A stretch of 64,000 nucleotides of DNA from a virus (Duplodnaviria > Heunggongvirae > Uroviricota > Caudoviricetes), in IMG/VR virus record IMGVR_UViG_3300020200_000004. The stretch is one strand, 5' to 3'. A program made the translations under genes and the position numbers. Shown piece after piece: positions 480 through 58,094 of the stretch. The notes under the pieces were generated by a model. The model ran no database searches and was not told where the DNA came from. It was given only the letters and a program-made list of their open reading frames with translations. How positions within the stretch are numbered: position 1 is the first letter of the stretch; each line of letters opens with the position of its first letter.

Positions 480-1706
480 CTAACCATGCTTAAAAATATT
501 TTCATTATATAAATTTTTGAATTCTTTATTCAATTCTAGCAATCCTATTTCCCATATTCTTTTACCTCTTTCTTTTATATTGATTGCTGAATTTTTATCT
601 CTTCCTATAATAAAATTACATTTAGAACATTCAAAAGTTCTTGTGCCGCTTAATTTTTCATTTAAATGTTTGCAATTTGAGCAAAGCATTGTTGTATAAG
701 GTGTAGGCACTAATACAAATGGCAGTCCTTTATCTTCGCAAATTGTTATTAGCTTAGATATAATCTTGTCTTGACCAAAACTCCCATGCCTTTTACCTAC
801 TTTTAGATTATCAATGCATATGCAAAGTTGATTGTCTTCTATATGTTTAGTAATCTCCTTAACAATATTATCGTATAATCTTGTAAGTTTTTTGTGATAT
901 CTTTTTATTTTTTTCCATTTAGTAGTTTTATCTTTGTTAGCTGCTCTTAATTTGTTTTCTATGTTGCATATTCTTTTCATAATTGGATCATTTTTGGAAA
1001 TTATGTCTATTTTTCTTTCTTTAAAATTAATCATATCTGAAAAAACCATAAAAGTTTTTGGAGTTTTATTCAAATCGAATCCTAAAAAATCTTTGGGTTG
1101 ATATTTCCAAACCACAGGTTTTTTAGTTCTGGCGACAAAATAAAGCTTATTATCTATCGTTGTTAAATTGCCGCCTGCTTCTTCCTTAAGATATTCTTTA
1201 GACCTCATCATGGTGCCGAGCGGAATATCAAATGGAACCGATATATTCTTTTTATCCTTTGAAAAGAAAAATTTAAAATTAATTAACATTTTTTCTTTAT
1301 CAATAGAAACACATCCAGAATATATTTCTAATCCTTTATCATTTCTGTTTTTGAATTTAATATAAGAAGAAGATTTTTTGTTTCTTTTTATATAACTTTG
1401 ATATCTTTGCAGAACTTGCCTTAAAATTTGTCTTTTAATAGTTGTAATTGGTATGTTTTCTTTTTCTGCCAATAATTCTATTTCATTTTCATATAAATGG
1501 TCGGCTTGAGATTTTATGCTTTTAATTATTAGTTTTTTCGCTTTTAATTGTTTGAATACTTTTTTAGAAAAATGATCATACAAAGGAAATAAAAAATTCA
1601 GAAAATCTCTGTTGGTATTTAATAATTCTAGTTTTAAACATCTGTTCTTGGTTGTGCCAAATTTATAGTTGTTGTTTTGTATTTTGATTAATTCTTTTAT
1701 ATTCAT
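480..1706 (-). CDS. tnpB: TnpB-like RuvC nuclease (IS200/IS605 OrfB family), solo; no TnpA nearby
   Basis: 408 aa. RuvC-I-like FLGFDLN, RuvC-II-like ICIDNLKV (Asp where Glu is typical), zinc finger CSNC...CSKC, RuvC-III RDKNSAINI. Confidence 0.8.
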   Translation of the reverse strand: MNIKELIKIQNNNYKFGTTKNRCLKLELLNTNRDFLNFLFPLYDHFSKKVFKQLKAKKLIIKSIKSQADHLYENEIELLAEKENIPITTIKRQILRQVLQRYQSYIKRNKKSSSYIKFKNRNDKGLEIYSGCVSIDKEKMLINFKFFFSKDKKNISVPFDIPLGTMMRSKEYLKEEAGGNLTTIDNKLYFVARTKKPVVWKYQPKDFLGFDLNKTPKTFMVFSDMINFKERKIDIISKNDPIMKRICNIENKLRAANKDKTTKWKKIKRYHKKLTRLYDNIVKEITKHIEDNQLCICIDNLKVGKRHGSFGQDKIISKLITICEDKGLPFVLVPTPYTTMLCSNCKHLNEKLSGTRTFECSKCNFIIGRDKNSAINIKERGKRIWEIGLLELNKEFKNLYNENIFKHG

Positions 1707-4154: not shown

Positions 4155-4182
4155 TTGACAATTTCAGCATTTTCTGTACAAT
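4155..4182 (+). promoter_or_regulatory. Host-type sigma-70 promoter (TTGACA-16-TACAAT) upstream of the sigma-factor gene
   Basis: ttgaca at 4155-4160, 16-nt spacer, tacaat at 4177-4182, about 75 nt upstream of ATG 4258. Confidence 0.5.
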
Positions 4183-5364: not shown

Positions 5365-6093
5365 GTGACAAACAATCTAATTAAATATCTGAATAAGCGT
5401 ATTATCCCTTGGCGAAACGATTTTGGGTTGCCAAGGGATATTGCCCATAAAACCCATAGCCCCGTTAATATTTTAATATTAAATGCGGCGACTGAGGTTA
5501 ATAGGTATAATTCACCTTTTTGGGCAACCAAGGAACAATGGAATTCAGTAGGTTGTAAAGTTAGATATTGGGAACAGCCAACTTTAAGTTATTACAACAA
5601 AGACCAAGTAGATGGAAGCTTTGCTTGTGCTGCTGACCCTGTTATGTCTTTTAATGAAGTTGATAAGTTAATTGTTGATACCAAGGTTAATATAAAGTTT
5701 TCGCATAAGCTTATTGCTGAATATCATTATCCACCCAATGATTACATTTTGTTTCCTTATAAAATTCATTTTGATATGGGAGAAGGTAAGGAAGCTGGGT
5801 ATTACAATGCAATTTTCCATGAATTAGCCCATTTTACAGAACCTAAATTGGGTTGGGAATCTGAAAAGTATGGTGTGCCGGTTACTGAGTTACGTGCTGA
5901 AATAGCTGCTGACTTCATCACTTCTTATCTGCGTCTCCCACGATTGGCTTTTAATTTAAGAAGTAACCATCACAAGTGGATGGCAGATTGGGTCATGGCT
6001 TTGTCCTATGCTCCAAATTTGCTTGTTGCGGCTGCTGCTTCGGCTTACAATGCATTTAGATTGATTGTGAAGAAATATGCTAACGTATATTGA
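5365..6093 (+). CDS. ArdC-like protein (N-terminal ssDNA-binding-like region plus HExxH metallopeptidase-like motif)
   Basis: 242 aa, GTG start; NRYNSPFWATKEQWNSVGCKVR resembles the ArdC-N (DUF1738) motif; HELAH motif downstream. Confidence 0.4.
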   Translation: MTNNLIKYLNKRIIPWRNDFGLPRDIAHKTHSPVNILILNAATEVNRYNSPFWATKEQWNSVGCKVRYWEQPTLSYYNKDQVDGSFACAADPVMSFNEVDKLIVDTKVNIKFSHKLIAEYHYPPNDYILFPYKIHFDMGEGKEAGYYNAIFHELAHFTEPKLGWESEKYGVPVTELRAEIAADFITSYLRLPRLAFNLRSNHHKWMADWVMALSYAPNLLVAAAASAYNAFRLIVKKYANVY

Positions 6094-6502
6094 AGGCGAT
6101 CTGTTTAATTCAAAATGCGAATATGTTATATGCACCGTGAACTGTATTGGTGTAATGGGAAAAGGAATTGCTTTAGAATTTAAGAAGCGATACCCAGAAA
6201 TGTACTTGGCTTATAGAGAGGCTTGTGATAAAGGGGAAGTTAAAATAGGAAAGATGTGGGTTTGGAATAATATTATAAATTTTCCCACTAAAGATGATTG
6301 GCGTAACCCTTCCAAGCTAGAGTATATTAAAGCTGGGTTGTTGGACTTGAAAGTGGTTGTAAGAGAAAGAGGAATAAAAAGTCTTGGGATGCCAAAATTA
6401 GGTTGCTCCAATGGAAAATTAACGTGGGAAGATGTTAAAAAGCTAATTGAGATATTTCATTCAGTGGTTCCAGAATTGGATTTGCAAGTTTATTTAAAAT
6501 GA
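6077..6502 (+). CDS. Macro-domain protein, OARD1/TARG1-like (terminal ADP-ribose glycohydrolase family)
   Basis: EGDLF...CTVNCIGVMGKGIALEFKKRYP and LGMPKLGCSNGKLTWEDV parallel human OARD1 EGDLF...[21 protein letters not shown] and LSMPRIGCGLDRLQWENV. Confidence 0.7.
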   Translation: MLTYIEGDLFNSKCEYVICTVNCIGVMGKGIALEFKKRYPEMYLAYREACDKGEVKIGKMWVWNNIINFPTKDDWRNPSKLEYIKAGLLDLKVVVRERGIKSLGMPKLGCSNGKLTWEDVKKLIEIFHSVVPELDLQVYLK

Positions 6503-7140
6503 TTAATCCTTTTCGCATTACTTTTTCTGGAGTAGATGATACAATTACTCCAGAAGCACTGGCCAGTTTCCAAGTAGACTATCCTGAAATCGACTTGGAA
6601 TGGGGGGTTTTGCTGTCCAAGAAAAGAGCGGGAACAGCAAGATATCCTAGCCTTGACTGGTTAGAGAAGGTAGCAAGATATACTATTTTTTTCAAAGATA
6701 AGTTTAAATTGAATTTAGCTGGTCATCTTCAGGGGCAATGGTTGCAAGAGGTAATAAATGGCGAATTCATGTTTCCTAGTTTGTGGAAAAAGTTATTCAG
6801 AAGGATGCAGTTAAATTTTCATGGGCAGACATTAAATGATAATTTTCCCAATAATTTGAAACTTCGTCCTTTAAATTGGGATATGGATTGCAATATATTC
6901 CAAGTTGTTAATGGCGATGATAGATTGGTGCATAAAGCAAGGAAATTAGGTATAAATGTTTATCCTCTTTATGACTCATCTTGTGGGAATGGCAAAGTAC
7001 CTGACTTTTGGATTAAAGGGTATTTTGATGTAAATGGTTTTGCAGGTGGGTTGGGACCGGATAATATAAAAGAAGAATGGTTTAAGATAGTCGATGCTGC
7101 TGATGGAAAAGACTTCTGGATTGATTGTGAAACACAATAA
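6499..7140 (+). CDS. Hypothetical protein (213 aa)
   Basis: ORF in operon-like + strand run; no motif recognised. Confidence 0.4.
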   Translation: MINPFRITFSGVDDTITPEALASFQVDYPEIDLEWGVLLSKKRAGTARYPSLDWLEKVARYTIFFKDKFKLNLAGHLQGQWLQEVINGEFMFPSLWKKLFRRMQLNFHGQTLNDNFPNNLKLRPLNWDMDCNIFQVVNGDDRLVHKARKLGINVYPLYDSSCGNGKVPDFWIKGYFDVNGFAGGLGPDNIKEEWFKIVDAADGKDFWIDCETQ

Positions 7141-7194: not shown

Positions 7195-8241
7195 ATGAAA
7201 TTCACACATTTGCTAGAAATTAAATTAGGGACTTGGTTTGGCATCAAGGTTATTTTAGACTTATGTTTGGTTGTTTTATGGATAACCTTGGCGATAATAA
7301 ATTTCAGTTCTATTGCAATTATATTATCTGTTTATGCATTTGTGCTTTTGCATGAATTTGGGCATGCGTTAGTTGGTAGATATATGGGGTTAAATTGTTA
7401 TCAGATAAAGATATATCCATTTGGAGGGTGCGCCTCATTTAGTAGCGAAATGGATGTGGGATATAAAGAATTTTGGATGGTTGCTGCTGGTCCGTTTGTA
7501 AACATAGTATTGGCATATATCTTTTGTGGTTTGTATTTTGTTTGCCCAAGTTATTTTTTATCTCAATGCACCACTATTAATTTGGCATTAGCTATATTTA
7601 ATTTAGTCCCTCTTTTTCCTATGGATGGCGGGCGTCTTGCAAGAATAGTATTTAATAAAATATTCAACAATACAATAAAAGCTACTCGTTTAGTCAACAT
7701 TGTGGGAATACCCCTGGCTTTGGCCCTATTTGTATTAGCTGTATATTCTTCCAATTTCATTTTGGGCATTATTGCTTTAATAATGCCTTTGGCTGGTACT
7801 TATGAACTTTCTGAGTTAAAACATAAGAAAAAGGCAAAACTTTATTTAGAGGCAGCTTATGCAGCAAAGAATCATGATTATGAAACTCAAGAAAGAATAT
7901 CTAATGAATTACACAGTGACGGGACAAGTGATATAATTAAGAATTATTTTTATATCGAACCCGATTACAAACTGGATTATATCATAGAAGTTTTGGAAAG
8001 CGATTTGGAAGGATATAAAAAGACAGGAGAATTCTTGAAATTTGCTATAGATTTTCACAAGTCTGTAAATGAAAAATTAAAAACATTGCATAAAATGATA
8101 AATGAAGATTTCGCTGACGGAGTATATTACAGAACTAGATTGTGCATTGACAATTTACAGCATAGAGCTTACAGAAAAGAGTTGGAAGAAATTCTTGATA
8201 AGCGTGGTTATATGACAAGATATGCACCTTTTATTAATTAA
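7195..8241 (+). CDS. Site-2 protease family (M50) membrane zinc metalloprotease
   Basis: HEFGHAL (HExxH) in a hydrophobic segment plus NLVPLFPMDGG (LDG-type motif); multiple predicted TM helices. Confidence 0.7.
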   Translation: MKFTHLLEIKLGTWFGIKVILDLCLVVLWITLAIINFSSIAIILSVYAFVLLHEFGHALVGRYMGLNCYQIKIYPFGGCASFSSEMDVGYKEFWMVAAGPFVNIVLAYIFCGLYFVCPSYFLSQCTTINLALAIFNLVPLFPMDGGRLARIVFNKIFNNTIKATRLVNIVGIPLALALFVLAVYSSNFILGIIALIMPLAGTYELSELKHKKKAKLYLEAAYAAKNHDYETQERISNELHSDGTSDIIKNYFYIEPDYKLDYIIEVLESDLEGYKKTGEFLKFAIDFHKSVNEKLKTLHKMINEDFADGVYYRTRLCIDNLQHRAYRKELEEILDKRGYMTRYAPFIN

Positions 8242-8837: not shown

Positions 8838-9173
8838 ATGGCAGCACCTAAGGGTAATGTTTATGCACAAAAGGAACAATATGCGTATCCATCTTATCAT
8901 GGTTCGCATAAGAGCATGGTCATGGAAGAGGAAACAAAGCAGTTGAAGGATAAAACTTTAACTGTATTGAAGGATGAATTTGGTCTTTATGTCACAAAGG
9001 CCAAATATCTTGACAATGGTTTGGCTGATCCTTATCGTAATGCTTGGCGTGGATATAGAAAGGAGCTTTACAGCAAGCTTATTGCACCTGTCAAGCCTGA
9101 TGAAAAAGAAAAGTCTTTGGTAGAGATTGAAGAAGAGTTGCAAGCTAACCTGGAACAAATCCTTAAAGATTAG
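8838..9173 (+). CDS. Hypothetical protein (111 aa)
   Basis: ORF with GGGTTTG-type RBS context; no motif recognised. Confidence 0.4.
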   Translation: MAAPKGNVYAQKEQYAYPSYHGSHKSMVMEEETKQLKDKTLTVLKDEFGLYVTKAKYLDNGLADPYRNAWRGYRKELYSKLIAPVKPDEKEKSLVEIEEELQANLEQILKD

Positions 9174-9181
9174 AGGCTAAA

Positions 9182-9577
9182 ATGAATGATATTGTAAGCA
9201 AAATTGAGAAATCGCTTAAAGAATGTTGGGCGACACCTGGAAGCGTATCTTTTAACAGTCGGTGTAGAGATGATATTTTTAATATTAGCATTTCACCGGC
9301 AGTTAGGGAAACAGTAGGTGGGGCTGAGGATGGTTCTCAGTCATATCCTCCCTTTGCTATGGAATTGAATAAGTTTATTGTCCAGGTATTTGATAAATGT
9401 CCCAAAATTACTTTAACTGGTCAAAATGGGGATGACGTTCCTTATCTTCATTTTAGGGGTAAAATTGGTGGGCAACTGTGTAATGTTATTGTGTTAACTA
9501 GGCCGCATAATACACAGCAAGTTGCAGAAATTTTCTATGCATATGGGCCTAAAGCTGGGACAGTTGAGAACAAGTGA
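9182..9577 (+). CDS. Hypothetical protein (131 aa)
   Basis: ORF; no motif recognised. Confidence 0.4.
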   Translation: MNDIVSKIEKSLKECWATPGSVSFNSRCRDDIFNISISPAVRETVGGAEDGSQSYPPFAMELNKFIVQVFDKCPKITLTGQNGDDVPYLHFRGKIGGQLCNVIVLTRPHNTQQVAEIFYAYGPKAGTVENK

Positions 9578-17142: not shown

Positions 17143-17178
17143 GTGTCGTTTTATTCTTACGGGAATGGAAGGATGCAC
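17143..17178 (+). promoter_or_regulatory. Conserved 36-nt hairpin element, copy 2 (spans the start codon of the IDO-like gene)
   Basis: gtgtcgttttattcttacgggaatggaaggatgcac; 32 of 36 nt identical to 5327-5362. Confidence 0.5.
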
Positions 17179-18283
17179 AGCAACAGAGAGCAAACTAATG
17201 CGAAGTCACTTTTGGGATGTAGTGGTAAGGGGATTTTTACCCATTCGTGATCCTGTATTAAAGGGAGATTTATTTGAAAAAATACCCCTTACAGGATCAA
17301 GGAATGAAATATTTAATTATTTAAATCAAAATAAAGTTGATTTAACAGCATTTGTAAACAATGAAGAAGATTGTGAACGGCTCTTTAGAATGTATTCCTA
17401 TGCTGCTAGTGCCTTTATTCATTCCCAAAGTGAACCGCCTACAAACGTTCTACCAAAAGAAATAGCCGTACCTTTAGTTAAGTTCTCTCAGATACTAGAC
17501 AGAAAGCCAATTCTATCATATGGTAGCTATTGTTTAAATAATTGGCAAAGAATAGATGTTACCAAACCTGTAGAACTAGGTAATATTCGTTTATTGACGC
17601 ATTTTTGCCCTATTCCATATAATCGGGATGAAGCTTGGTTTATTCTGGTGCATGTGGATATAGAAAATTCAGCAGCTTTGGGTATTTTTGCTTGTCATTC
17701 GATGCTTTTGCAAGACCCCTTAACACCTGAATTTGCTTTCTTTGTGCTTAATCAGATAAAAACCAGTCTGATTAACATGAATAAAGCCTTGAATAGAATG
17801 CCAGAAGAATGTAGCCCAGAGCATTATTTTTTATTCGTTAGACCTTATATATTCAGCTTTGAAAATGTTGTTTATGAAGATTGTTTTCATGGTAAACCGC
17901 AAACTTTTAGGGGTGAAACAGGGGCACAAAGTTCTATAATACCTGCTTTTCTTGCAGCATTGGAGATAAAGCATAAAGATTCAATGTTGACTCATCATTT
18001 GCAGGAAATGCGGGATTATATGCCTAAAGACCATCGCATTTTCCTGAATAATTTAGAAAATAGTTCTGTGCATCTAAGGGAAGTGGCTAAGAAAGACAGC
18101 AAGTTAAAGCCTTTATATAATGAATGTTTAATGCAACTTATTGATTTTAGAGAAAAACATTTTGAATATGCTATTAACTATATTGCTAATAAAGTAGAGA
18201 ATCCTAAAGGTACAGGAGGAACACCTTATGTGCCTTGGCTTAAGCAGCTGAAAGAAGAGACTAAGCAGCAAATTTTGGAGTAA
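17165..18283 (+). CDS. Indoleamine 2,3-dioxygenase (IDO)-family heme dioxygenase-like protein
   Basis: GETGAQSS, LQEMRDYMPKDHRIFL and KGTGGTPYVPWLKQLK parallel human IDO1 GGSAGQSS, LQDMRRYMPPAHRNFL and KGTGGTDLMNFLKTVR; a His is present where IDO has its proximal His. Confidence 0.65.
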   Translation: MEGCTATESKLMRSHFWDVVVRGFLPIRDPVLKGDLFEKIPLTGSRNEIFNYLNQNKVDLTAFVNNEEDCERLFRMYSYAASAFIHSQSEPPTNVLPKEIAVPLVKFSQILDRKPILSYGSYCLNNWQRIDVTKPVELGNIRLLTHFCPIPYNRDEAWFILVHVDIENSAALGIFACHSMLLQDPLTPEFAFFVLNQIKTSLINMNKALNRMPEECSPEHYFLFVRPYIFSFENVVYEDCFHGKPQTFRGETGAQSSIIPAFLAALEIKHKDSMLTHHLQEMRDYMPKDHRIFLNNLENSSVHLREVAKKDSKLKPLYNECLMQLIDFREKHFEYAINYIANKVENPKGTGGTPYVPWLKQLKEETKQQILE

Positions 18284-24869: not shown

Positions 24870-26042
24870 ATGCTTGTAGCAGAACGACATTATATACAAG
24901 AAACACTTGAAATTGTCCGACTATGTACATTAAGCAAAGAACTTTACAATAAATGCAATTTCTTGATGAGGCAAGCATGGTTTATAAATGAAAAATTACC
25001 TAATATAAATTTGCTTGTTCGAGAGACAAAGCCATTAGACTGTTACAAAAACCTTCACAACACCAAAACAGCAGCACAAACAATACGTAAATGTCTTGTA
25101 GATTGGGCAAACTTCCTCAAAACCCTGAAAGCATACAAGAAAGACCCAACAAAATTCAAAACTAGACCTAAACCGCCTTATTATAAAAATAAACTCACAC
25201 AAATTATATTCTTTAATGAAACTATCAAGAAAAGACCATTGAAACAAGATGTAATTACCCCAACGAACAATCTATTTTCAATTAAAAGTGACATTAAAGA
25301 ATTTAAGCAAGTAATGATTACTCCTAAAACATTTGGTTTTATAGTAGACATTCAATATGAAAAAGAAGTCAAGAAAGTAAAAGTAAGCAAGAATAGGTTT
25401 GCCTGTATAGATGTTGGTGTAAATAATTTAGCTACGATAACTTCAAACCAACTGGAGCATCCCATATTGGTTAATGGTCGCATACTAAAAAGCATCAATA
25501 GATTCTATAATAAAAAACCTAATAAGAATAATAGTAGGAAACGTTATTTCCGTATTGAGAATTATTTCCATCATGCTTCTAAATTTATAATTGATTTATG
25601 TATTAAACATAAAATTGGCAAAATCATTATCGGTAAGAATGATGGTTGGAAGCAATTTTCTAAAATACGAAAAGTACAAAACCAAAATTTTCAATATATT
25701 CCTTTTTATAAATTTTTAGATAAGATTAAGTATAAAGCAACATTAGCGGGCATTGAAGTTATATTTACTGAAGAATCATATACAAGTAAAGCAAGTTTCC
25801 TTGACCATGATTCAATACCAACTTATAAAAAAGGCAATAAACCTCCTACTTTTTCTGGTAAAAGAGATAAAGGAATGTATAGAACATTTAGACCTATTCA
25901 TGCTGACGTGAATGGAAGTTTAAACATAGGATGTAAAGTATTCGGGGATAAAGTCTACAAGGCTTTCCCTGATAGGAGCATTGCCGCAATGCCAGTACGA
26001 ATTAATCCATTGAAGATTTTTGCATATAACAGCAAAAATTAG
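24870..26042 (+). CDS. tnpB: TnpB-like protein (OrfB_IS605 family), apparently nuclease-dead (TldR-like)
   Basis: 390 aa. RuvC-I FACIDVGVNNLA and RuvC-III HADVNGSLNIGCK are present. The RuvC-II position reads KIIIGKNDGW (Gly where the catalytic Glu is expected). The zinc-finger cysteines are absent (ESYTSKASFLDHDS...). Confidence 0.65.
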   Translation: MLVAERHYIQETLEIVRLCTLSKELYNKCNFLMRQAWFINEKLPNINLLVRETKPLDCYKNLHNTKTAAQTIRKCLVDWANFLKTLKAYKKDPTKFKTRPKPPYYKNKLTQIIFFNETIKKRPLKQDVITPTNNLFSIKSDIKEFKQVMITPKTFGFIVDIQYEKEVKKVKVSKNRFACIDVGVNNLATITSNQLEHPILVNGRILKSINRFYNKKPNKNNSRKRYFRIENYFHHASKFIIDLCIKHKIGKIIIGKNDGWKQFSKIRKVQNQNFQYIPFYKFLDKIKYKATLAGIEVIFTEESYTSKASFLDHDSIPTYKKGNKPPTFSGKRDKGMYRTFRPIHADVNGSLNIGCKVFGDKVYKAFPDRSIAAMPVRINPLKIFAYNSKN

Positions 26043-27021: not shown

Positions 27022-27116
27022 TGTTTATTTTTGGAAAACATCTGCTATAATAAAAGTGTAAGGCAAAAGGGCCTTGCGATTTTGCAGTAAAAGACTGCGT
27101 AGAAAAGGAGAACGAA

Positions 27117-28154
27117 ATGTTAGAGCAAATGTTTGAGTCCGTGCGCACACTTCTTAATTCCCACAATCAAGTAATCGGTGAAGGAAATCCTGGGTATGTA
27201 AACCCTGATGAATTTCTTACTGCCATTAAAGTTGCTGGTGGGACAAGTGAAGAAAGATTGAAAAGAATGTCCCATGAGGATATTTTGCATTTTCTTCCAA
27301 AGACTAATTATCTACCTATTATGTTGGCCAAGGATATTGCAAAGGTATTCCGTGGCAATGATAGTGTGAACCATATCGAAACAGATACGGTCGAAGCACA
27401 AAGCCGTAAGCCTGTCACATCTAAAAAGGCTGATAGGATGAGTTTGCGTGAACTTATCCAAAATTATGATCCTGAAGAAAATAATGCTGTTTCCAAGCGG
27501 CTTAAAGAGGTTTCTAGAAATGAACCTTTTATTGTGTTTTCAACTGATAATGCTGTTAATGTTGAAGTTACTTTAAAGTTATTGCTAGAAGTTAAAGGTG
27601 GTTTTGACGGTAGAACCGATTATAAAGTTGGCAATGACATATTTCCAGTCTACAAAGTTGGTGAAAGAACCGATTATTATGTAGATGAGAATCCGCTTTA
27701 TGATAATCGCCCTTTGCGGCCTGATGGTACTTGTGATCAAACAGGAAGGTCATGGGAAGGTGTTGAACTTAAAATAAGGCAGCTAGTCAGGTTGGCTGTA
27801 GCAACTGGAGAACTTCATGTTAGCTTGGAAAATGCAAATAACATCTTGGATATGGTTTTATCTACAGATGCTTGGAGCAAGTTGACAACAAGGTATCGTA
27901 AGGCTACACTTAAGTTTAATGAACTTAGCAAGACTGGCGAATTACCTAAGTTAAAGATGGCATTGGGGGTTGCCCGCAAACGCCCTTTTGAGGATGGGAA
28001 GAAGGTTGTATTTATTAAAGAATCTTCTCCCAAAAACAAGCGTGGCCAACAGAACGCTGGAATTTGGCAGTATCCAATTGGCGGTGGGGTTGCTCATCCT
28101 GATTGCATATACAAAAATGATGGCGGTAAGTGGACGATGAATGTTGAAAAGTAA
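27117..28154 (+). CDS. Hypothetical protein (345 aa)
   Basis: ORF with AAGGAGAA RBS. Confidence 0.4.
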   Translation: MLEQMFESVRTLLNSHNQVIGEGNPGYVNPDEFLTAIKVAGGTSEERLKRMSHEDILHFLPKTNYLPIMLAKDIAKVFRGNDSVNHIETDTVEAQSRKPVTSKKADRMSLRELIQNYDPEENNAVSKRLKEVSRNEPFIVFSTDNAVNVEVTLKLLLEVKGGFDGRTDYKVGNDIFPVYKVGERTDYYVDENPLYDNRPLRPDGTCDQTGRSWEGVELKIRQLVRLAVATGELHVSLENANNILDMVLSTDAWSKLTTRYRKATLKFNELSKTGELPKLKMALGVARKRPFEDGKKVVFIKESSPKNKRGQQNAGIWQYPIGGGVAHPDCIYKNDGGKWTMNVEK

Positions 28155-29038: not shown

Positions 29039-29803
29039 ATGAAAAGTGACTTTGCAAAAATCGTAACGGAGAGGCCAAGAGCAGGGGGCGGCTATAAAAA
29101 CCCAAAAGGTTGGAATGCCCGTTCTCAACATCGTACTGCCAATCAATGTGAACAGGAAAACTGGCCCAAAAGGGAAAAAATCCGACAAAAATGGCAGTCC
29201 AGTTTCGGTGAGAAACAATTCACCGATGTTCTTGGCCCTCTCTACGGTTATCTTTTAAAGCAAGTTGGGCGTCATTGGGATGATGTATTTTCCGAAATCT
29301 GCGAGAATCTACCAGCCAATAACACCAATACCAGCCATGTCAGGGACCACGTTTTCGATTTCGTTGAGGTTGACGTGGTTATGGTTGATGGCGTTCCTTG
29401 TTATCGCAGAAGCTTTGGAAAATATACTTGGTTAAAGAAACAAGAATGGACTCCCTTGAGCGTCTATGGAAGTCGCCAATTCCAATTGTATGTTAATCCC
29501 GAAAATGGTTTACTCTGCAAACTTGAGAAAAAGAAAGAAGTCAAGAAGGACAAAAAAGAAGGCAAAGGTGTCATTGTAGACGATACCCATCAATACCATA
29601 AGATTGATGGAGTTTGGTATCTGTTGGCACTTAAGATCGTTAACCGTCATCCTGAATATTACGAACTTTTCTATGATGTTGGTTACAAAAAGAACTTTCG
29701 TGACTCTGAAATGTTCCGCCATTATGGAAAACGTTGCTATTGCATTCACAAAACTCAATTAAACAAACGACAAATCAAAAAGGCTAAATTAAATGGAGAA
29801 TAG
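29039..29803 (+). CDS. Hypothetical protein (254 aa)
   Basis: ORF. Confidence 0.4.
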   Translation: MKSDFAKIVTERPRAGGGYKNPKGWNARSQHRTANQCEQENWPKREKIRQKWQSSFGEKQFTDVLGPLYGYLLKQVGRHWDDVFSEICENLPANNTNTSHVRDHVFDFVEVDVVMVDGVPCYRRSFGKYTWLKKQEWTPLSVYGSRQFQLYVNPENGLLCKLEKKKEVKKDKKEGKGVIVDDTHQYHKIDGVWYLLALKIVNRHPEYYELFYDVGYKKNFRDSEMFRHYGKRCYCIHKTQLNKRQIKKAKLNGE

Positions 29804-30218
29804 GCCATTAATAGGTGTCGCTACTTGTATTTTCAAAGACGGTCAAGTTTTATTAGGTTTGCGTAAAGGTAAGCATGCCAATAATACATGGGGATTTCCT
29901 GGCGGGCATCTTGAATTCGGAGAAAAAATAGAAGATTGTGCCAGAAGAGAAATAGCTGAAGAAGTTGATGTGGAAGTAAATTGTTTAAGTTTTATATCAG
30001 TTGTTGGCAATGTTTATGAAGAAGAAAATAAACATTATTTGACAATACTTTATACAGCCAATTATGTTTCTGGTGATTTAACAGTAAAAGAACCAGATAA
30101 ACACTTGGAATGGAAATGGTTTCCCATCTGTGATTTGCCAGAAAACTTAATGCCTCCTGCCAAGAAATTTTTGAAGGAACTTAGTAAAGATACTTTGTGT
30201 TCGGTTATAATTGAATGA
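29793..30218 (+). CDS. NUDIX hydrolase
   Basis: Nudix box GFPGGHLEFGEKIEDCARREIAEEVDV (Gx5Ex7REUxEExGU). Confidence 0.8.
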   Translation: MENRPLIGVATCIFKDGQVLLGLRKGKHANNTWGFPGGHLEFGEKIEDCARREIAEEVDVEVNCLSFISVVGNVYEEENKHYLTILYTANYVSGDLTVKEPDKHLEWKWFPICDLPENLMPPAKKFLKELSKDTLCSVIIE

Positions 30219-42364: not shown

Positions 42365-42451
42365 AATGGCTCTGTTCGTTGATCTTTGACATCTTATTTT
42401 TAAGTTTATTTTAAACAGAAAGCAAACTGTTATCAGTTTTTCTTTCTGTTC

Positions 42452-42489
42452 AGTCTCTCGCCCTTATTTAAAAATAAGGGCGAGAGACT
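42452..42489 (+). other. Perfect 15-bp-stem hairpin between the cas12-like gene and the CRISPR array (terminator-like but without a U tract)
   Basis: agtctctcgccctta-tttaaaaa-taagggcgagagact. Confidence 0.45.
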
Positions 42490-42713
42490 ATGTGGTGAAA
42501 AACGTTGGAAAAGAAAATTTTTCTTAAGTCCTGATGAATTAAGCTTTTGCGATAAAGTTATCCTGTGCTGCCTATCGCTCGTTTTAAGTCTTTATTTGAA
42601 AAAGGTTTATGGCATCAAACCAATAAAATTCGGATATGCAGTTGTTCTAAAGTAATTGCCTCTCGCATACTTGTTTGTAAGTTGTTTTATTAAAAGGCTT
42701 TATGCAAATGAGC
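42490..42713 (+). promoter_or_regulatory. AT-rich CRISPR leader (putative)
   Basis: About 220 nt AT-rich sequence directly upstream of the first, non-degenerate repeat; the degenerate repeat is at the far end of the array. Confidence 0.4.
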
Positions 42714-44534
42714 GTTGCAATAGATTAAAACAATGTGCTGTTATTGGCACTTCGGCGTCATCGTCGGCATGGCCGCCCTGGTCCTGGTTGCAATAGATTA
42801 AAACAATGTGCTGTTATTGGCACACCAATGGCCAGTTTCAGAAAAGCACTTTTTCAATGTTGCAATAGATTAAAACAATGTGCTGTTATTGGCACAAATA
42901 AAACCAGCCAGTAACCGCTATATCCGCAAAAGTTGCAATAGATTAAAACAATGTGCTGTTATTGGCACTATTTGATTGTACATTGCATTACAATCGCCGT
43001 TTTTGTTGCAATAGATTAAAACAATGTGCTGTTATTGGCACCCAAAGGCCAGTCTCCGCCTTTGGCGCTCAAGAGCGTTGCAATAGATTAAAACAATGTG
43101 CTGTTATTGGCACCGATACAATGAAAGTAATCACGTGCACGATGGCAAGGTTGCAATAGATTAAAACAATGTGCTGTTATTGGCACGTCAAATATGGAGT
43201 AGGATGAAGGGCGAATTTTGGAGTTGCAATAGATTAAAACAATGTGCTGTTATTGGCACTGGAGGCTAAGGACTAACAAGAAGAAACTAGGAATGGTTGC
43301 AATAGATTAAAACAATGTGCTGTTATTGGCACGGAGTCCAGATACCATAGTTAATTCGTTGCAATAGATTAAAACAATGTGCTGTTATTGGCACACTAAT
43401 CAGCCAATCTTCTTAGGTGTTGATCTTTCGTTGCAATAGATTAAAACAATGTGCTGTTATTGGCACCGAACCGCCCTTGCCGCCGCCGTACACCTTAATG
43501 GTGTTGCAATAGATTAAAACAATGTGCTGTTATTGGCACTATCCGCAAAAAAAGAATGTGTCAATGCAAGGGTATTGTTGCAATAGATTAAAACAATGTG
43601 CTGTTATTGGCACCCAGCTTGGCAATCTGTCCTTCAATGTGCGTTCTTTGTTGCAATAGATTAAAACAATGTGCTGTTATTGGCACTATAGTGTATGCAC
43701 CGACTAATATATAATAGTAGCGTTGCAATAGATTAAAACAATGTGCTGTTATTGGCACTTTTTGGTCCTCGTCGTGGCCGTACACGTGATCGAGGTTGCA
43801 ATAGATTAAAACAATGTGCTGTTATTGGCACTCCAGTTATTGCTTGTTACTGAGAGAAGGGCTGGGCAGCGTTGCAATAGATTAAAACAATGTGCTGTTA
43901 TTGGCACTATAGCAATCGATTATCTCCGCATCGTCCAGTAGATGTTGCAATAGATTAAAACAATGTGCTGTTATTGGCACCTGCGCAGCGTAGAAGGTTG
44001 TTTCGTCGATGACCTGGTTGCAATAGATTAAAACAATGTGCTGTTATTGGCACAAACGTGACAAAGAGGTTGCAATAGATTAAAACAATGTGCTGTTATT
44101 GGCACATGAATTCGCCAGTGGCGACATGTCGGTCCGTGTCTGGTTGCAATAGATTAAAACAATGTGCTGTTATTGGCACTTGATGCTCTGCCCCAGACTT
44201 TCGTGGAAATCCGTGTTGCAATAGATTAAAACAATGTGCTGTTATTGGCACGGCATTTGCTTAGCCACCTCCGCACTCTTACACTTCTGTTGCAATAGAT
44301 TAAAACAATGTGCTGTTATTGGCACAATGTTCCAGACTTGCTACTACCTAATATGTTTCCGTTGCAATAGATTAAAACAATGTGCTGTTATTGGCACGTG
44401 CGAAGGTTGCCGGACTGCTTATGTTGCAATAGATTAAAACAATGTGCTGTTATTGGCACTGGAACGCACTTTTTCTTTTTTGCGATGCAGCAAGGAAGTT
44501 GCAATAGATTAAAACAATGTGCTGTTATTAGCAC
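42714..44534 (+). CRISPR. CRISPR array: 26 direct repeats of 37 bp (GTTGCAATAGATTAAAACAATGTGCTGTTATTGGCAC), 25 spacers
   Basis: Most spacers 35-37 nt; outliers 39, 38, 25, 25 and 15 nt. Repeat 4 carries a 1-nt deletion. The last repeat (44498-44534) is degenerate (..TTAGCAC). A 3' stem GTGC-N8-GCAC sits in each repeat next to the spacer. Same orientation as the cas12-like gene. Confidence 0.95.
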
Positions 44535-46077: not shown

Positions 46078-46151
46078 GCCCCTGTAGTTTAATTGTGCAA
46101 AACGTGCTACTTTAGATAGCTAAGATGTGGGTTCGAATCCTGCCAGGGGCG
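46078..46151 (+). tRNA. tRNA with predicted anticodon UUA (ochre/UAA-suppressor-type)
   Basis: Cloverleaf by hand: acceptor gcccctg/caggggc, D-stem gttt/aaac, anticodon stem gcta/tagc with loop cTTTAga (U33, anticodon TTA, R37), variable loop aagat, T-arm gtggg-ttcgaat-cctgc. One t-t mismatch at the top of the anticodon stem. Confidence 0.5.
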
Positions 46152-52309: not shown

Positions 52310-53233
52310 ATGAATGATAAGGTAAAAGGAGCATTGTGGGGAGGAGTTGTGGGAGATTCAGCTGGGATGTGCGCCGAATTCCTTCCGAGAGGGAGTTTTC
52401 CACCAATTACTGGATATAGAAGCGGTGGGCCATTCAATTTAGAAAAAGGGGCATTCACCGATGACACTTCTATGGCCTTGTGTTTGGCTGATAGCATTGC
52501 CACTGTTGGTTGGGACTTGAAAGATCAATTGAAACGGTATGTAGATTGGTATGAAAATGGAAAATATTCAGTAAATGGTAAATGTTTTGATATTGGCTGT
52601 ACAACTAGGCATGCTTTAAATGAATTTATTCGTACTGGAGAAGTTAATGCAGACCTAGACGAAAATGCTTCTGGCAATGGTTGCATAATGAGACTTTCTG
52701 CCGTTCCAGCCTATTATAGATATCTTTTCCCTCACTATTTGCCTGAATTAATGGTAAAGGCCGAAGAGTCTAGTGCAACAACTCACGGAAGCGAACAATG
52801 CAAATCTAGTTGTCGTTATATGACTGCAATTATTTGTGCTTTTATTCATGGAGATTATACAAAAGATGAAGTTTTATCAACAAATTGGAGAATACTAAAA
52901 GAAATTGAAAACTTAAAGCCTTTGCATCCTTTAGTTAAAACTATTGCAAATGGCAGTTTTAAAACAAAAACTTTAGAAGAAATTGATTCATCAGGATGGG
53001 TGATTGCTACGCTTGAAGCGGCAATTTATTCATTTTATCATTCGAATAGTTTTGAAGAAGCAGTATTTCGTTCTTGCAACATGGGATTAGATGCAGATAC
53101 GGTAGGTTGCGTTACAGGCCAAATTGCTGGTGCGTATTATGGTTTTGATGCTATCCCCAAGGAACTAATTGAAGGTTTGAGTAGAAAAGACATGCTGGAA
53201 GAATATTTCGGCAAGTTATATAAAGGAAACTAA
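52310..53233 (+). CDS. ADP-ribosylglycohydrolase (ARH/DraG family)
   Basis: GALWGGVVGDSAGM and GAFTDDTSMALCLADS N-terminal signatures; C-terminal GLDADTVGCVTGQIAGAYYG. Confidence 0.8.
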   Translation: MNDKVKGALWGGVVGDSAGMCAEFLPRGSFPPITGYRSGGPFNLEKGAFTDDTSMALCLADSIATVGWDLKDQLKRYVDWYENGKYSVNGKCFDIGCTTRHALNEFIRTGEVNADLDENASGNGCIMRLSAVPAYYRYLFPHYLPELMVKAEESSATTHGSEQCKSSCRYMTAIICAFIHGDYTKDEVLSTNWRILKEIENLKPLHPLVKTIANGSFKTKTLEEIDSSGWVIATLEAAIYSFYHSNSFEEAVFRSCNMGLDADTVGCVTGQIAGAYYGFDAIPKELIEGLSRKDMLEEYFGKLYKGN

Positions 53234-53934: not shown

Positions 53935-54624
53935 ATGATTAATGAACTAGGTCCGACTGGAGATTTTCGCTGTCCAAAATGCAAAAACAGCCTCCAAAAT
54001 AGCGTTGTTGGGGACAAATATCGTTGCGCAAATTGTAAGCACGATTGGAAACCTACCATTGTCGATTGGGCATTAAAGATTGCAACCGAAGCGCATATTT
54101 ATCAAAAGAGGAAATGGGCTACTGGAACGGCAGAAGTTCCTTATATTGTCCATCCAATCCGTGTTGCTAAAAAGATTGCTACGTTAAAAGGCACTACTGA
54201 AGTTGACGTTGCAGCAGCTTTAGTCCATGATTTAGCGGAAGATGTTGCTATTCCCCAAAAGAAAGTTGCAGAATATAATCAGCTTGTTGAAGAAAAGTGT
54301 GGTAAGTTAGTTCTTGAATTGATGTGGGAACTTACTAATCCAACGGAAGGACCGGAATGGGCAGATGTTCCAAGGACTGAGAAGAGAAAGCATGATTGGC
54401 AGCATTTAGCTCAAGTTTCTGATCGTGCCAAACGTATTAAAATGGTTGATCGCTGGGATAATGTCAGTGACTTTGGCAATGCTCCGTCCAGGCTTGTTTT
54501 CAAATACATCCCAGAAAGTTATCATCTTTTAAGTATGACTCGTTATGTTGATGAAGAAATGGGTCAAGAATTAGAAGATGCAATTAAGGCATTAGAAAAA
54601 CGTTATAAACACAAAAATGGCTAA
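53935..54624 (+). CDS. HD-domain (p)ppGpp hydrolase (small alarmone hydrolase, RelA/SpoT-HD-like) with N-terminal zinc ribbon
   Basis: EAHIYQKRKWATGTAEVPYIVHPIRVA...AAALVHDLAEDV...IKMVDRWDNV parallels the SpoT HD GEPYI.HPL.VA..AALLHDVVEDT...IKLADRLHNM; CPKC/CANC pairs at the N-terminus. Confidence 0.7.
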   Translation: MINELGPTGDFRCPKCKNSLQNSVVGDKYRCANCKHDWKPTIVDWALKIATEAHIYQKRKWATGTAEVPYIVHPIRVAKKIATLKGTTEVDVAAALVHDLAEDVAIPQKKVAEYNQLVEEKCGKLVLELMWELTNPTEGPEWADVPRTEKRKHDWQHLAQVSDRAKRIKMVDRWDNVSDFGNAPSRLVFKYIPESYHLLSMTRYVDEEMGQELEDAIKALEKRYKHKNG

Positions 54625-58023: not shown

Positions 58024-58094
58024 GGCCCCATAGCTTAAGAGGAAAGCAGGGTGCTTATAACGCCAAGACGGTAGTGCGACTCTACCTGGGGCTA
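58024..58094 (+). tRNA. tRNA, predicted anticodon UAU (Ile, AUA-reading); short
   Basis: Acceptor ggcccca/tggggct, D-arm gctt-aagagga-aagc (GG in loop), anticodon loop cTTATAa, T-arm ggtag-tgcgact-ctacc; the anticodon stem has one mismatch and one G-U pair. Confidence 0.45.

What the first reader, a model, noticed from the sequence alone, without database searches (positions are those of the whole stretch)
6077..6502. OARD1/TARG1-like macro domain, one of two candidate ADP-ribosylation-reversal enzymes
The 141-aa protein aligns by eye along its whole length with human OARD1/TARG1 (EGDLF..., ...MGxGIAxxFKK..., ...MPxxGCGxxxLxWExV...). Bacterial relatives include the DarG antitoxin macro domain that removes DarT ADP-ribose from DNA. 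An ADP-ribosylglycohydrolase lies at 52310. A phage carrying both may counter ADP-ribosylating defence or toxin systems.
Basis: partly seen in the sequence, partly recalled or inferred. Interest (0 to 1): 0.55.

Follow-up and report, generated by a model that had tools for sequence, protein, structure and literature searches.

The report
Phage copy of DarG antitoxin macrodomain
This phage gene encodes a stand-alone copy of the enzyme half of the bacterial DarG antitoxin. It most likely strips ADP-ribose off phage DNA to defeat the DarT2 defence toxin, a counter-defence already shown experimentally in phages PhiKZ and T4, so this is a new example of a known trick.

Summary
The ORF at 6077..6502 (+) is real and encodes a 141-aa macrodomain. 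It is far closer to the macrodomain of bacterial DarG antitoxins: M. tuberculosis DarG E 4.5e-44, 52% identity, TM 0.98, rmsd 0.9 Å on a pLDDT 97.6 model.

Every experimentally important TaqDarG residue is kept (N22, K29, catalytic K80→K72, W83→W75). TARG1's Asp125 is replaced by Gly, as in DarG.

The protein covers only the N-terminal half of the DarG profiles and lacks the DarT-binding domain. No DarT homologue was detected in the window. The context is a large phage (RIIA/RIIB, endonuclease VII, clamp loader), and the nearest record is a 595-kb uncultured phage.

It therefore matches the published "AdfM" class of phage anti-DarT2 macrodomains (PhiKZ gp104, 34% identity). The function is inferred from homology, not tested.

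The ADP-ribosylglycohydrolase at 52310 is also real. It is Tri1/DraG-like (arginine-specific) and lies 46 kb away, so it is not physically linked to the macro gene.

This is a new member of a known kind, of modest interest.

The parts
6077..6502 (+). Stand-alone DarG-type macrodomain gene (141 aa), a predicted ADP-ribosyl-DNA glycohydrolase of the AdfM-like orphan-antitoxin kind. Key residues: N22, K29, T71, K72 (catalytic Lys), W75, and the loop G109-C-S-N112-G113.
   Evidence: Searches cover the ORF, Pfam Macro, and PDB DarG at 4.5e-44. PADLOC DarG matches at 2e-57 over profile positions 1-143 of 329. NCBIfam antitoxin_DarG matches at 5e-56 over positions 2-146 of 338. The AF2 model has pLDDT 97.6, and Foldseek gives 5m3i TM 0.98. 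Identity to PhiKZ AdfM is 34%.
5365..6093 (+). Upstream neighbour: an ArdC-like protein (ArdC N-terminal ssDNA-binding domain plus an HExxH zincin metallopeptidase). It overlaps the macro start by 17 nt. This is context; a functional link is not shown.
   Evidence: Pfam ArdcN matches at 2.7e-09 and MPTase-PolyVal at 9.7e-11. An ArdC-like gene also lies upstream of the macro gene in the distant relative LR756511. It is absent from four other homologue contexts.
6499..7140 (+). Downstream neighbour: a 213-aa protein from a rare family, start-stop coupled to the macro gene through an ATGA overlap. It may be a divergent TrpF/PRAI-like TIM barrel, truncated at the C-terminus. This is context; a functional link is not shown.
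   Evidence: There is no Pfam, PHROG, NCBIfam or PDB hit. Only 9 homologues exist, and one is named phosphoribosylanthranilate isomerase by UniRef. The profile's only PDB hits are TrpF, at E 0.86. hhalign gives a co-linear match at 12% probability. Homologues elsewhere are not next to macro genes.
4155..4182 (+). Near-consensus sigma-70 promoter-like site (TTGACA-16-TACAAT, 11 of 12). It lies in the intergenic gap ahead of the same-strand run sigma factor - ArdC-like - macro - 213 aa - M50 protease. It suggests early transcription by host RNA polymerase; this is an inference.
   Evidence: The total number of promoter-like sites in the region is not above the shuffled expectation, so this rests on the quality and position of one site.
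52310..53233 (+). Second ADP-ribose eraser in the window: an ADP-ribosylglycohydrolase of the Tri1/DraG (arginine-ADP-ribose) branch. It is 46 kb from the macro gene and not physically linked to it.
   Evidence: Pfam PF03747 matches at 4e-63. PDB hits are 2cwc at 6e-53, Tri1 6dre at 1.8e-52 and DraG at 1e-22. NCBIfam Tri1 scores 4.8e-72 and 242.7 bits, below its 490-bit cut-off.

Best explanation
The gene encodes a catalytically competent DarG-type macrodomain: the enzymatic N-terminal half of the DarG2 antitoxin, without the C-terminal DarT-binding half and without a toxin gene. The proposed mechanism is as follows. When a host DarTG2 system is triggered by infection, DarT2 ADP-ribosylates thymidines in single-stranded phage DNA and blocks replication or packaging. 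The phage macrodomain binds the ADP-ribose in its conserved pocket (N22, T71, and the G109/N112/G113 loop). Trp75 is positioned, as proposed for DarG, to stack on the modified thymine. Lys72 then catalyses cleavage of the ribose-thymine bond, restoring unmodified DNA. It would thus act as an enzymatic orphan antitoxin of the AdfM type, independent of the exact DarT2 sequence.

Shown here: the ORF, the fold, DarG-level homology, conservation of all residues tested in DarG and AdfM, absence of the DarT-binding domain, no detectable DarT in the window, phage context, and long residence in this phage lineage.

Inferred: enzymatic activity, DNA-thymidine specificity, early expression, and the anti-DarT2 role.
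For: Sequence. M. tuberculosis DarG macrodomain 5m3i matches at E 4.5e-44 and T. aquaticus DarG 5m31 at 1.5e-34, against TARG1 at 3.9e-10. PADLOC DarG matches at 2e-57 and NCBIfam antitoxin_DarG at 5e-56.

Structure. The AF2 model has pLDDT 97.6. Foldseek gives 5m3i TM 0.98 and rmsd 0.9 Å, and ADPr-bound Taq DarG 5m3e TM 0.96.

Residues. In TaqDarG, K80A is inactive and N22A, K29E and G119E are strongly impaired (PMC5179494). Here these positions are K72, N22, K29 and S111. K72, N22 and W75 are invariant in 107 homologues. Position 111 varies naturally (G58, S15, N11, A10), and active PhiKZ AdfM has Ala there.

Sufficiency. The isolated TaqDarG macrodomain is sufficient as an antitoxin (PMC5179494).

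Precedent. PhiKZ AdfM is 34% identical over its full length (E 3e-29). It removes DarT2 ADP-ribose from DNA, is impaired by N23A (window N22), and is needed on DarTG2 hosts (PMC13309987).

Relatives. Nine of ten long (290-370 aa) close relatives pass the curated DarG cut-off at full length, so the protein sits among true antitoxins.

No toxin. phmmer --max on the six-frame translation and tblastn, both with a P. aeruginosa DarT2, found nothing. No ART or DarT Pfam domain appears among the called genes.

Phage context. RIIA matches at 2.9e-117 and there is a clamp loader, plus rIIB and endonuclease VII. The gene order is colinear with the 595-kb phage LR756511. Homologues sit in phage contigs, one directly upstream of a DNA polymerase A gene.
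Against: No activity or phenotype was measured, and the host is unknown, as is whether it carries DarTG2. The window is only part of a genome of at least 112 kb, so a DarT or other ADP-ribosyltransferase elsewhere in the phage cannot be excluded. The DarT search used a single DarT2 query, and the PADLOC family list showed only 25 of 30 families. The G58-F69 hairpin loop is the shortest in the family, 10 residues against a mode of 14, and the effect of this on DNA binding is unknown. Ser replaces Taq G119, although that is a common natural variant. T4 AdfM counters DarTG2 without the catalytic Lys, which shows that sequence features do not map simply onto this phenotype. Substrate specificity within the TARG1/DarG class cannot be read from sequence with certainty, because TARG1 itself acts on both protein and DNA ADP-ribose (PMC8501950 abstract).
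Confidence: 0.74

Rival explanations
1. It erases ADP-ribose from substrates other than DarT2-modified thymidine. Candidates are Glu/Asp-linked protein ADP-ribose as for TARG1, phosphate-linked ADP-ribose on RNA or DNA ends, or marks written by other defence ADP-ribosyltransferases. It would still be counter-defence, but against a different system.
For: The fold and catalytic Lys are shared with TARG1. The same phage carries a Tri1-like arginine-ADP-ribose hydrolase, a SpoT-like HD hydrolase and a NUDIX enzyme, which suggests broad investment in nucleotide and ADP-ribose conflicts. Viral macro substrate ranges are poorly defined (PMC9503650).
Against: It is 34 orders of magnitude closer to DarG than to TARG1. 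It lacks TARG1 Asp125 (Gly113). It keeps the DarG-specific N22 and W75, which are invariant in the family. [quoted passage not shown]
Confidence: 0.13
2. It is a housekeeping processor of small ADP-ribose metabolites: an ADP-ribose-1''-phosphate phosphatase or O-acetyl-ADP-ribose deacetylase, as the database labels 'phosphatase', 'Appr-1-p processing' and 'regulator of RNase III' suggest. It might be tied to RNA repair or NAD turnover.
For: The PHROG 335 label is 'phosphatase'. JGI names its homologues 'O-acetyl-ADP-ribose deacetylase'. Phage records use 'Appr-1-p processing' and 'phosphatase'. There is weak partial similarity to Poa1p, at E 4e-5 over residues 2-59.
Against: These labels are inherited generic names, and even the M. 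tuberculosis DarG crystal entry is titled 'RNase III inhibitor'. The YmdB/MacroD-type NCBIfam model scores only 17.5 bits against a 246-bit cut-off. Poa1p is a much poorer match than DarG in both sequence and structure.
Confidence: 0.07
3. It is the immunity half of a phage-borne DarT-macro pair, either a toxin-antitoxin or addiction module or a phage weapon against host or competitor DNA, with the toxin gene lying outside this window.
For: One phage record, Thermus phage phiMa, has a DarT2 homologue (40% identity, E 1e-33) ending 69 nt upstream of its macro gene. The window covers only part of the genome.
Against: In known systems darT sits immediately next to darG. Here the flanking genes are an ArdC-like protein and a TrpF-like protein. 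No DarT was detected in the 64-kb window. Only 1 phage record in 50,697 has a detectable DarT2 homologue, whereas 379 have the macro homologue, and the nearest relative LR756511 is not among the DarT hits.
Confidence: 0.04
4. It is a non-catalytic ADP-ribose binder or sensor, or a decaying gene.
For: The hairpin loop is the shortest in the family, and there is a Ser at the Taq G119 position.
Against: All catalytic and binding residues are intact. The identical sequence occurs on 12 contigs from several samples. The gene has been retained in a colinear position at 49% identity in a deeply diverged relative. The model is confident and matches active enzymes at 0.9 Å.
Confidence: 0.02

Closest known systems
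AdfM of Pseudomonas phage PhiKZ (gp104), anti-DarT factor macro (PMC13309987)
   Same: Both are phage-encoded stand-alone macrodomains of DarG2 type with no DarT-binding domain. They are 34% identical over the full length (E 3e-29). They share the tested Asn (N23 in AdfM, N22 here), the PTK catalytic Lys, the Trp, and the GCxNG loop.
   Different: The window protein is closer to bacterial DarG (52% to Mtb) than to PhiKZ AdfM, and falls outside the AdfM branch in a rough NJ tree. PhiKZ AdfM has a 9-residue insertion before the last strand and is imported into the phage nucleus. The window phage has a sigma factor and rIIA/rIIB, and nothing in the window points to a nucleus-forming phage. Activity is demonstrated for gp104 and only inferred here.
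DarG antitoxin macrodomain of DarTG2 toxin-antitoxin systems (M. tuberculosis 5m3i, T. aquaticus 5m31/5m3e; PMC5179494)
   Same: This is the closest sequence and structure match: E 4.5e-44, 52% identity, TM 0.98, rmsd 0.9 Å. All mutationally defined residues are conserved. The isolated macrodomain is known to be sufficient as an antitoxin.
   Different: The window protein lacks the C-terminal DarT-binding domain of about 190 residues; it covers profile positions 1-143 of 329 and 2-146 of 338. There is no adjacent darT gene. It is phage-encoded, and an 8-residue hairpin loop is deleted.
Human TARG1/OARD1 (4j5q/4j5r/4j5s)
   Same: It has the same macrodomain subclass fold (TM 0.84-0.86) and a catalytic Lys in the equivalent TK position. 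TARG1 can also remove DarT-type DNA ADP-ribose (PMC8501950 abstract).
   Different: Identity is only 26% and E 3.9e-10. Asp125 of TARG1 is Gly here, and TARG1 lacks the DarG-type Asn22 and Trp75 equivalents.
AdfM of phage T4 (Tk.4) (bioRxiv 10.1101/2025.11.20.689424)
   Same: It is a phage stand-alone macrodomain with the same proposed role, and its knock-out sensitises T4 to DarTG2.
   Different: It is only 23% identical (E 1e-8). It has Thr-Gln where DarG, PhiKZ AdfM and the window protein have Thr-Lys, so it is a different macrodomain lineage.
AdfN (T4 30.3) and other phage NADAR orphan antitoxins against DarTG1 (PMC11825919)
   Same: It follows the same strategy: the phage carries the enzymatic part of the defence system's own antitoxin and erases the DNA mark.
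   Different: It has an unrelated fold (NADAR) and a different lesion (guanine ADP-ribose written by DarT1).

Membership tests
Macro domain superfamily (Pfam PF01661) | Profile match above the curated gathering score | tested here: met
   E 2.6e-13 and 50.4 bits against a 22-bit cut-off, covering residues 20-123.
Macro domain superfamily (Pfam PF01661) | Three-layer alpha/beta/alpha macro fold | tested here: met
   The AF2 model has pLDDT 97.6 with six strands and four helices. 173 PDB macrodomain-type matches have E <= 1e-3.
DarG-type (DarG2) macrodomain | Closest sequence and structural relatives are DarG macrodomains | tested here: met
   5m3i E 4.5e-44 and 5m31 1.5e-34. TM 0.98 and 0.96. 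PADLOC DarG 2e-57.
DarG-type (DarG2) macrodomain | Catalytic Lys (TaqDarG K80) plus the supporting Asn22, Lys29 and Trp83 | tested here: met
   K72, N22, K29 and W75 are present. K72, N22 and W75 are invariant in 107 homologues. The residue roles come from PMC5179494.
DarG-type (DarG2) macrodomain | Hydrolysis of thymidine-linked ADP-ribose on ssDNA | not testable with these tools
   This needs a biochemical assay with a DarT2-modified oligonucleotide.
Full-length DarG antitoxin of a DarTG2 toxin-antitoxin system | C-terminal DarT-binding domain | tested here: not met
   The protein ends at residue 141 and matches only positions 1-143 of 329 (PADLOC) and 2-146 of 338 (NCBIfam).
Full-length DarG antitoxin of a DarTG2 toxin-antitoxin system | NCBIfam antitoxin_DarG equivalog cut-off (250 bits) | tested here: not met
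   It scores 190.4 bits. Nine of ten long relatives pass at 264-455 bits.
Full-length DarG antitoxin of a DarTG2 toxin-antitoxin system | Adjacent darT toxin gene | tested here: not met
   The flanking genes are ArdC-like and TrpF-like. No DarT2 homologue was found in the six-frame translation of the window.
AdfM-type phage orphan antitoxin (PhiKZ gp104 type) | Phage-encoded, stand-alone DarG2-like macrodomain homologous to gp104 | tested here: met
   34% identity, E 3e-29, full length. Phage context is shown.
AdfM-type phage orphan antitoxin (PhiKZ gp104 type) | Conserved active-site Asn whose mutation (N23A) impairs gp104 | tested here: met
   N22 aligns with gp104 N23.
AdfM-type phage orphan antitoxin (PhiKZ gp104 type) | Protects the phage from DarTG2 and rescues DarT2 toxicity | not testable with these tools
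   This needs genetics or co-expression assays.
TARG1/OARD1 | Catalytic dyad Lys84 and Asp125 | tested here: not met
   The Lys is present (K72), but the Asp125 position is Gly113, which is invariant in the family.
TARG1/OARD1 | TARG1 is the nearest family | tested here: not met
   E 3.9e-10 and 26% identity, against E 4.5e-44 and 52% for DarG.
MacroD/YmdB-type ADP-ribose-binding protein / O-acetyl-ADP-ribose deacetylase | NCBIfam PRK00431-type equivalog match | tested here: not met
   17.5 bits against a 246-bit cut-off.
ADP-ribosylglycohydrolase (ARH/DraG/Tri1), for ORF 52310..53233 | Pfam PF03747 full-length match | tested here: met
   E 4e-63, profile positions 1-287 of 287.
ADP-ribosylglycohydrolase (ARH/DraG/Tri1), for ORF 52310..53233 | Tri1 ADP-ribosylarginine hydrolase equivalog cut-off (490 bits) | tested here: not met
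   242.7 bits at E 4.8e-72. It lacks the N-terminal ~66 profile positions. It is Tri1/DraG-like but not an equivalog.

The most novel reading that the evidence does not exclude
The same-strand run ArdC-like ssDNA-binding metalloprotease, DarG-type macrodomain and TrpF-like barrel works as one module for ADP-ribosylated single-stranded DNA. ArdC and macro overlap by 17 nt, and macro and the TrpF-like gene share an ATGA start-stop overlap. In this reading the ArdC-like protein would recruit to ssDNA or degrade the toxin, the macrodomain would erase the mark, and the TrpF-like enzyme would act on the released or base-linked ribosyl product. An ArdC-like gene also lies upstream of the macro gene in the deeply diverged 595-kb relative. 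Alternatively, this DarG-proximal stand-alone clade may target a DNA or RNA ADP-ribose lesion other than the DarT2 mark.
Probability: 0.07. Interest if true: 0.6.

Novelty: new member of a known kind. Interest (0 to 1): 0.25.

Why it matters
It adds an environmental example, probably from a huge phage, to the recently established class of phage orphan antitoxins that enzymatically erase DarT2 DNA ADP-ribosylation. It also shows that this class extends beyond nucleus-forming chimalliviruses and T4. Some phage copies are nearly as similar to bona fide bacterial DarG (about 50% identity) as DarGs are to each other. This supports capture of the antitoxin's enzymatic half from the defence system itself.

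On the practical side, 379 GenBank phage records carry homologues, mostly labelled 'phosphatase', 'Appr-1-p processing' or 'hypothetical'. Those labels could be updated.

The co-occurrence with a Tri1-like arginine-ADP-ribose hydrolase, a SpoT-like HD hydrolase and a NUDIX enzyme suggests that this phage invests broadly in undoing nucleotide-based host attacks. Nothing here overturns current understanding.

Tried and rejected
- The single-sequence AlphaFold model was unusable (pLDDT 33.7). It was replaced by a model built on a 107-sequence alignment.
- Megablast of 8 kb around the gene against GenBank phages found nothing. Relatives were found only at the protein level.
- TARG1 orthology was rejected (see the membership test).
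- The YmdB/MacroD and Poa1p readings were rejected on score.
- A DarT partner was sought with phmmer --max and tblastn over the six-frame window, and in PADLOC and Pfam annotations. None was found.
- A conserved ArdC-macro pairing was tested. It is absent in four stand-alone homologue contexts, although an ArdC-like gene lies 1.7 kb upstream of the macro gene in LR756511.
- The small coupled ORF downstream of three homologues is unrelated to the window's 213-aa neighbour.
- The TrpF-like reading of the 213-aa neighbour stays inconclusive: PDB profile E 0.86, hhalign probability 12%.
- Homologues of the 213-aa neighbour are not next to macro genes, so a conserved macro-TrpF pair was rejected.
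- TAA recoding, suggested by the UAA-reading tRNA, was rejected for this window because TAA is the commonest stop, in 32 of 53 genes.
- Recent horizontal acquisition was not supported: gene GC is 34.7% against 35.5% for the window, and gene order is colinear with a diverged relative.
Full report
**Observation.** The ORF at 6077..6502 on the + strand exists exactly as described (141 aa, ATG start, TGA stop). Its start overlaps the stop of the upstream gene by 17 nt. Its stop overlaps the start of the downstream gene in an ATGA arrangement. It passes the Pfam Macro domain model (E 2.6e-13, 50.4 bits against a 22-bit cut-off). The identical protein, with identical neighbours, is found on 12 independent metagenome contigs from several samples. 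It is therefore a real, stable gene rather than an assembly artefact.

**What it is.** TARG1 is not the nearest relative. Against all PDB sequences, the best matches are the macrodomains of the DarG antitoxins of M. tuberculosis (5m3i, E 4.5e-44) and Thermus aquaticus (5m31, E 1.5e-34), then the Thermosipho DarTG fusion (7omu, 2.8e-23). TARG1 follows only at about 4e-10. A single-sequence AlphaFold run failed (pLDDT 34). A model built on an alignment of 107 homologues is excellent (pLDDT 97.6, pTM 0.91). It superposes on Mtb DarG at TM 0.98 and 0.9 Å (52% identity) and on ADP-ribose-bound Taq DarG at TM 0.96. TARG1 gives TM 0.84-0.86 at about 2.2 Å.

The defence-system library PADLOC assigns it to DarG (2e-57), but only to profile positions 1-143 of 329. 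NCBI's curated 'antitoxin DarG' equivalog model matches at 5e-56, but over positions 2-146 of 338. It therefore scores 190 bits, below the 250-bit cut-off. The protein is the enzymatic half of DarG without the C-terminal DarT-binding half.

**Active site.** Jankevicius et al. (PMC5179494) showed that TaqDarG K80A is inactive, that N22A, K29E and G119E are strongly impaired, and that W83 is positioned to stack on the modified thymine. In the window protein these positions are K72, N22, K29, S111 and W75. K72, N22, T71, W75, G109 and G113 are invariant across the 107 homologues. Position 111 is naturally variable (Gly 58, Ser 15, Asn 11, Ala 10), and the biochemically active PhiKZ AdfM has Ala there. 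TARG1's second catalytic residue, Asp125, aligns with the invariant Gly113, as in all DarGs. The one structural peculiarity is the shortest hairpin loop in the family: 10 residues between G58 and F69, against a mode of 14. This loop is not among the residues listed as contacting ADP-ribose.

**Evolutionary placement.** An exhaustive HMMER scan of 1.84 billion cluster representatives found 10,096 relatives, 218 of them at E <= 1e-30. The top hits mix stand-alone proteins (141-190 aa) with proteins of 290-370 aa that carry the macrodomain at the N-terminus. Nine of ten such long relatives pass the curated DarG cut-off over the full profile. In a rough neighbour-joining tree without bootstrap, the window protein sits in a clade of 25 stand-alone proteins. 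That clade nests inside a larger group containing the Mtb and Taq DarG macrodomains. PhiKZ AdfM lies outside that group.

**Genomic context.** The window is gene-dense and almost entirely on one strand. It contains an RIIA homologue (PHROG 612, 2.9e-117) and a clamp loader. It also has rIIB, endonuclease VII, thioredoxin and NUDIX genes, a sigma factor, two tRNAs and homing or transposon-type nucleases. The same protein occurs on a contig of 111,954 bp.

The nearest catalogued relative, for both the macro protein (49%) and RIIA (37%), is the 595-kb uncultured phage LR756511. In that phage the order sigma factor, ArdC-like, macro and three downstream genes is colinear with the window, at 30-57% protein identity. 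The gene's GC content (34.7%) matches the window (35.5%). The macro gene is thus an old resident of this phage lineage.

Four other close homologues sit in phage-like neighbourhoods. Three are in a conserved neighbourhood with ClpP and Ro60/TROVE, two of them on contigs of about 400 kb and one on a 69-kb contig. The fourth overlaps the start of a family-A DNA polymerase gene.

**No toxin partner.** A P. aeruginosa DarT2 sequence (from PMC13309987) finds nothing in the six-frame translation of the window, either by phmmer with filters off or by tblastn. No ADP-ribosyltransferase Pfam domain appears among the genes called across the window. The immediate neighbours are an ArdC-like protein and a 213-aa protein of a rare family. 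Across 50,697 phage records, 379 carry a homologue of the macro protein. Only one, Thermus phage phiMa, carries a detectable DarT2 homologue, which ends 69 nt upstream of its macro gene. This makes 'immunity to the phage's own DarT' an unlikely general role.

**Mechanism.** The best explanation is an orphan-antitoxin counter-defence. After infection, host DarT2 ADP-ribosylates thymidines in single-stranded phage DNA. The phage macrodomain then hydrolyses the ribose-thymine bond through Lys72 and restores the DNA.

Three published results support the inference. The isolated TaqDarG macrodomain is sufficient as an antitoxin (PMC5179494). PhiKZ gp104 (AdfM) removes DarT2 marks in vitro, is impaired by N23A, rescues DarT2 toxicity and is needed on DarTG2 hosts (PMC13309987); it is 34% identical to the window protein over its full length. 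T4 Tk.4 (also named AdfM) is conditionally essential on DarTG2 hosts (bioRxiv 10.1101/2025.11.20.689424).

T4 Tk.4 is only 23% identical to the window protein and has Gln in place of the catalytic Lys. The two published AdfMs are therefore different macrodomain lineages, and the window protein belongs with the DarG/PhiKZ type.

A near-consensus sigma-70 promoter (11 of 12) lies upstream of the sigma-factor gene that heads this same-strand run. That is compatible with early expression, but it rests on a single pattern match. Activity, substrate and phenotype are all inferred.

**The second enzyme.** ORF 52310..53233 is a full-length ADP-ribosylglycohydrolase (PF03747, 4e-63). It is closest to a Thermus ARH (2cwc, 6e-53), to the Tri1 immunity protein (6dre, 1.8e-52) and, more distantly, to DraG. 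NCBIfam places it nearest the Tri1 ADP-ribosylarginine hydrolase, at 242.7 bits, below the 490-bit equivalog cut-off. It lies 46 kb from the macro gene. It belongs to the DraG/Tri1 branch, whose named members hydrolyse arginine-linked ADP-ribose on proteins. The two genes are therefore parallel tools rather than a pair. A published survey reports macro domains in about 56% of jumbo phages and ARH-type domains in about 5% (PMC9503650). Carrying both is less common but not new.

**Side lead.** The 213-aa downstream gene has no hit in Pfam, PHROGs, NCBIfam or PDB, and only nine homologues in 5.8 billion proteins. By eye it carries TrpF-like motifs, and one homologue is named phosphoribosylanthranilate isomerase by UniRef. 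A profile of the family hits only TrpF structures in PDB, but at E 0.86. The window copy is 30-50 residues shorter at the C-terminus than all its homologues. Its homologues are in phage contigs near RNA ligases or methyltransferases, not near macro genes.

**Verdict.** It is a new member of a known kind, of modest interest.

Noticed in passing
window 46078..46151 (+): A tRNA with anticodon UUA, which reads the UAA stop codon. ARAGORN calls it 'tRNA-Stop', and Rfam tRNA scores it at 57.4 bits. TAA is nevertheless the commonest stop in the window (32 of 53 genes), and read-through of TAA does not reveal obvious recoded genes, so its role is unexplained.
   Followed up: partly
window 58024..58094 (+): A second tRNA, found by Rfam (53.6 bits) but not reported by ARAGORN.
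   Followed up: no
window 6499..7140 (+): A 213-aa protein of a very rare family (9 homologues), coupled to the macro gene by an ATGA overlap. It may be a divergent TrpF/PRAI-like TIM barrel, and it is truncated by 30-50 residues relative to its homologues. The evidence is inconclusive.
   Followed up: partly
window 5365..6093 (+): An ArdC-like protein (ssDNA-binding ArdC N-domain plus an HExxH zincin peptidase) immediately upstream of, and overlapping, the macro gene. An ArdC-like gene also lies upstream of the macro gene in the 595-kb phage LR756511.
   Followed up: partly
window 53935..54624 (+): An HD_4 / RelA-SpoT-type hydrolase domain protein three genes downstream of the ARH. It may be a phage alarmone hydrolase.
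   Followed up: no
window 29793..30218 (+): A NUDIX hydrolase of 141 aa. It could in principle process free ADP-ribose released by the erasers, but this was not examined.
   Followed up: no
window 17165..18283 (+): A protein matching Pfam IDO (indoleamine 2,3-dioxygenase, PF01231). As far as I know this is an unusual domain for a phage genome.
   Followed up: no
window 480..1706 (-) and 24870..26042 (+): Two TnpB/Cas12f-like ORFs (Cas12f1-like TNB and OrfB_IS605 domains) inside the phage-like window.
   Followed up: no
window 7195..8241 (+): A membrane M50 (site-2 protease) family peptidase with an HEFGH motif, in the same gene run as the macro gene.
   Followed up: no
window 42365..44380: A stretch of about 2 kb with no ORF of at least 90 aa on either strand. 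It begins with strong hairpins just after the 1020-aa gene, for example a 17-bp perfect stem at about 42452..42489.
   Followed up: no
Thermus phage phiMa MH673674.1, 26364..26957 and 27026..27466: The only phage record of 50,697 with a detectable DarT2 homologue (40% identity, E 1e-33). The homologue ends 69 nt upstream of the phage's DarG-like macro gene, so this looks like a phage-borne DarT-macro pair.
   Followed up: no
L017 (phage T4 NC_000866) 8923..9390 (-), gene tk.4: T4 AdfM (Tk.4) aligns with Thr-Gln where DarG, PhiKZ AdfM and the window protein have the catalytic Thr-Lys. The two proteins published as 'AdfM' are therefore not the same macrodomain lineage.
   Followed up: partly
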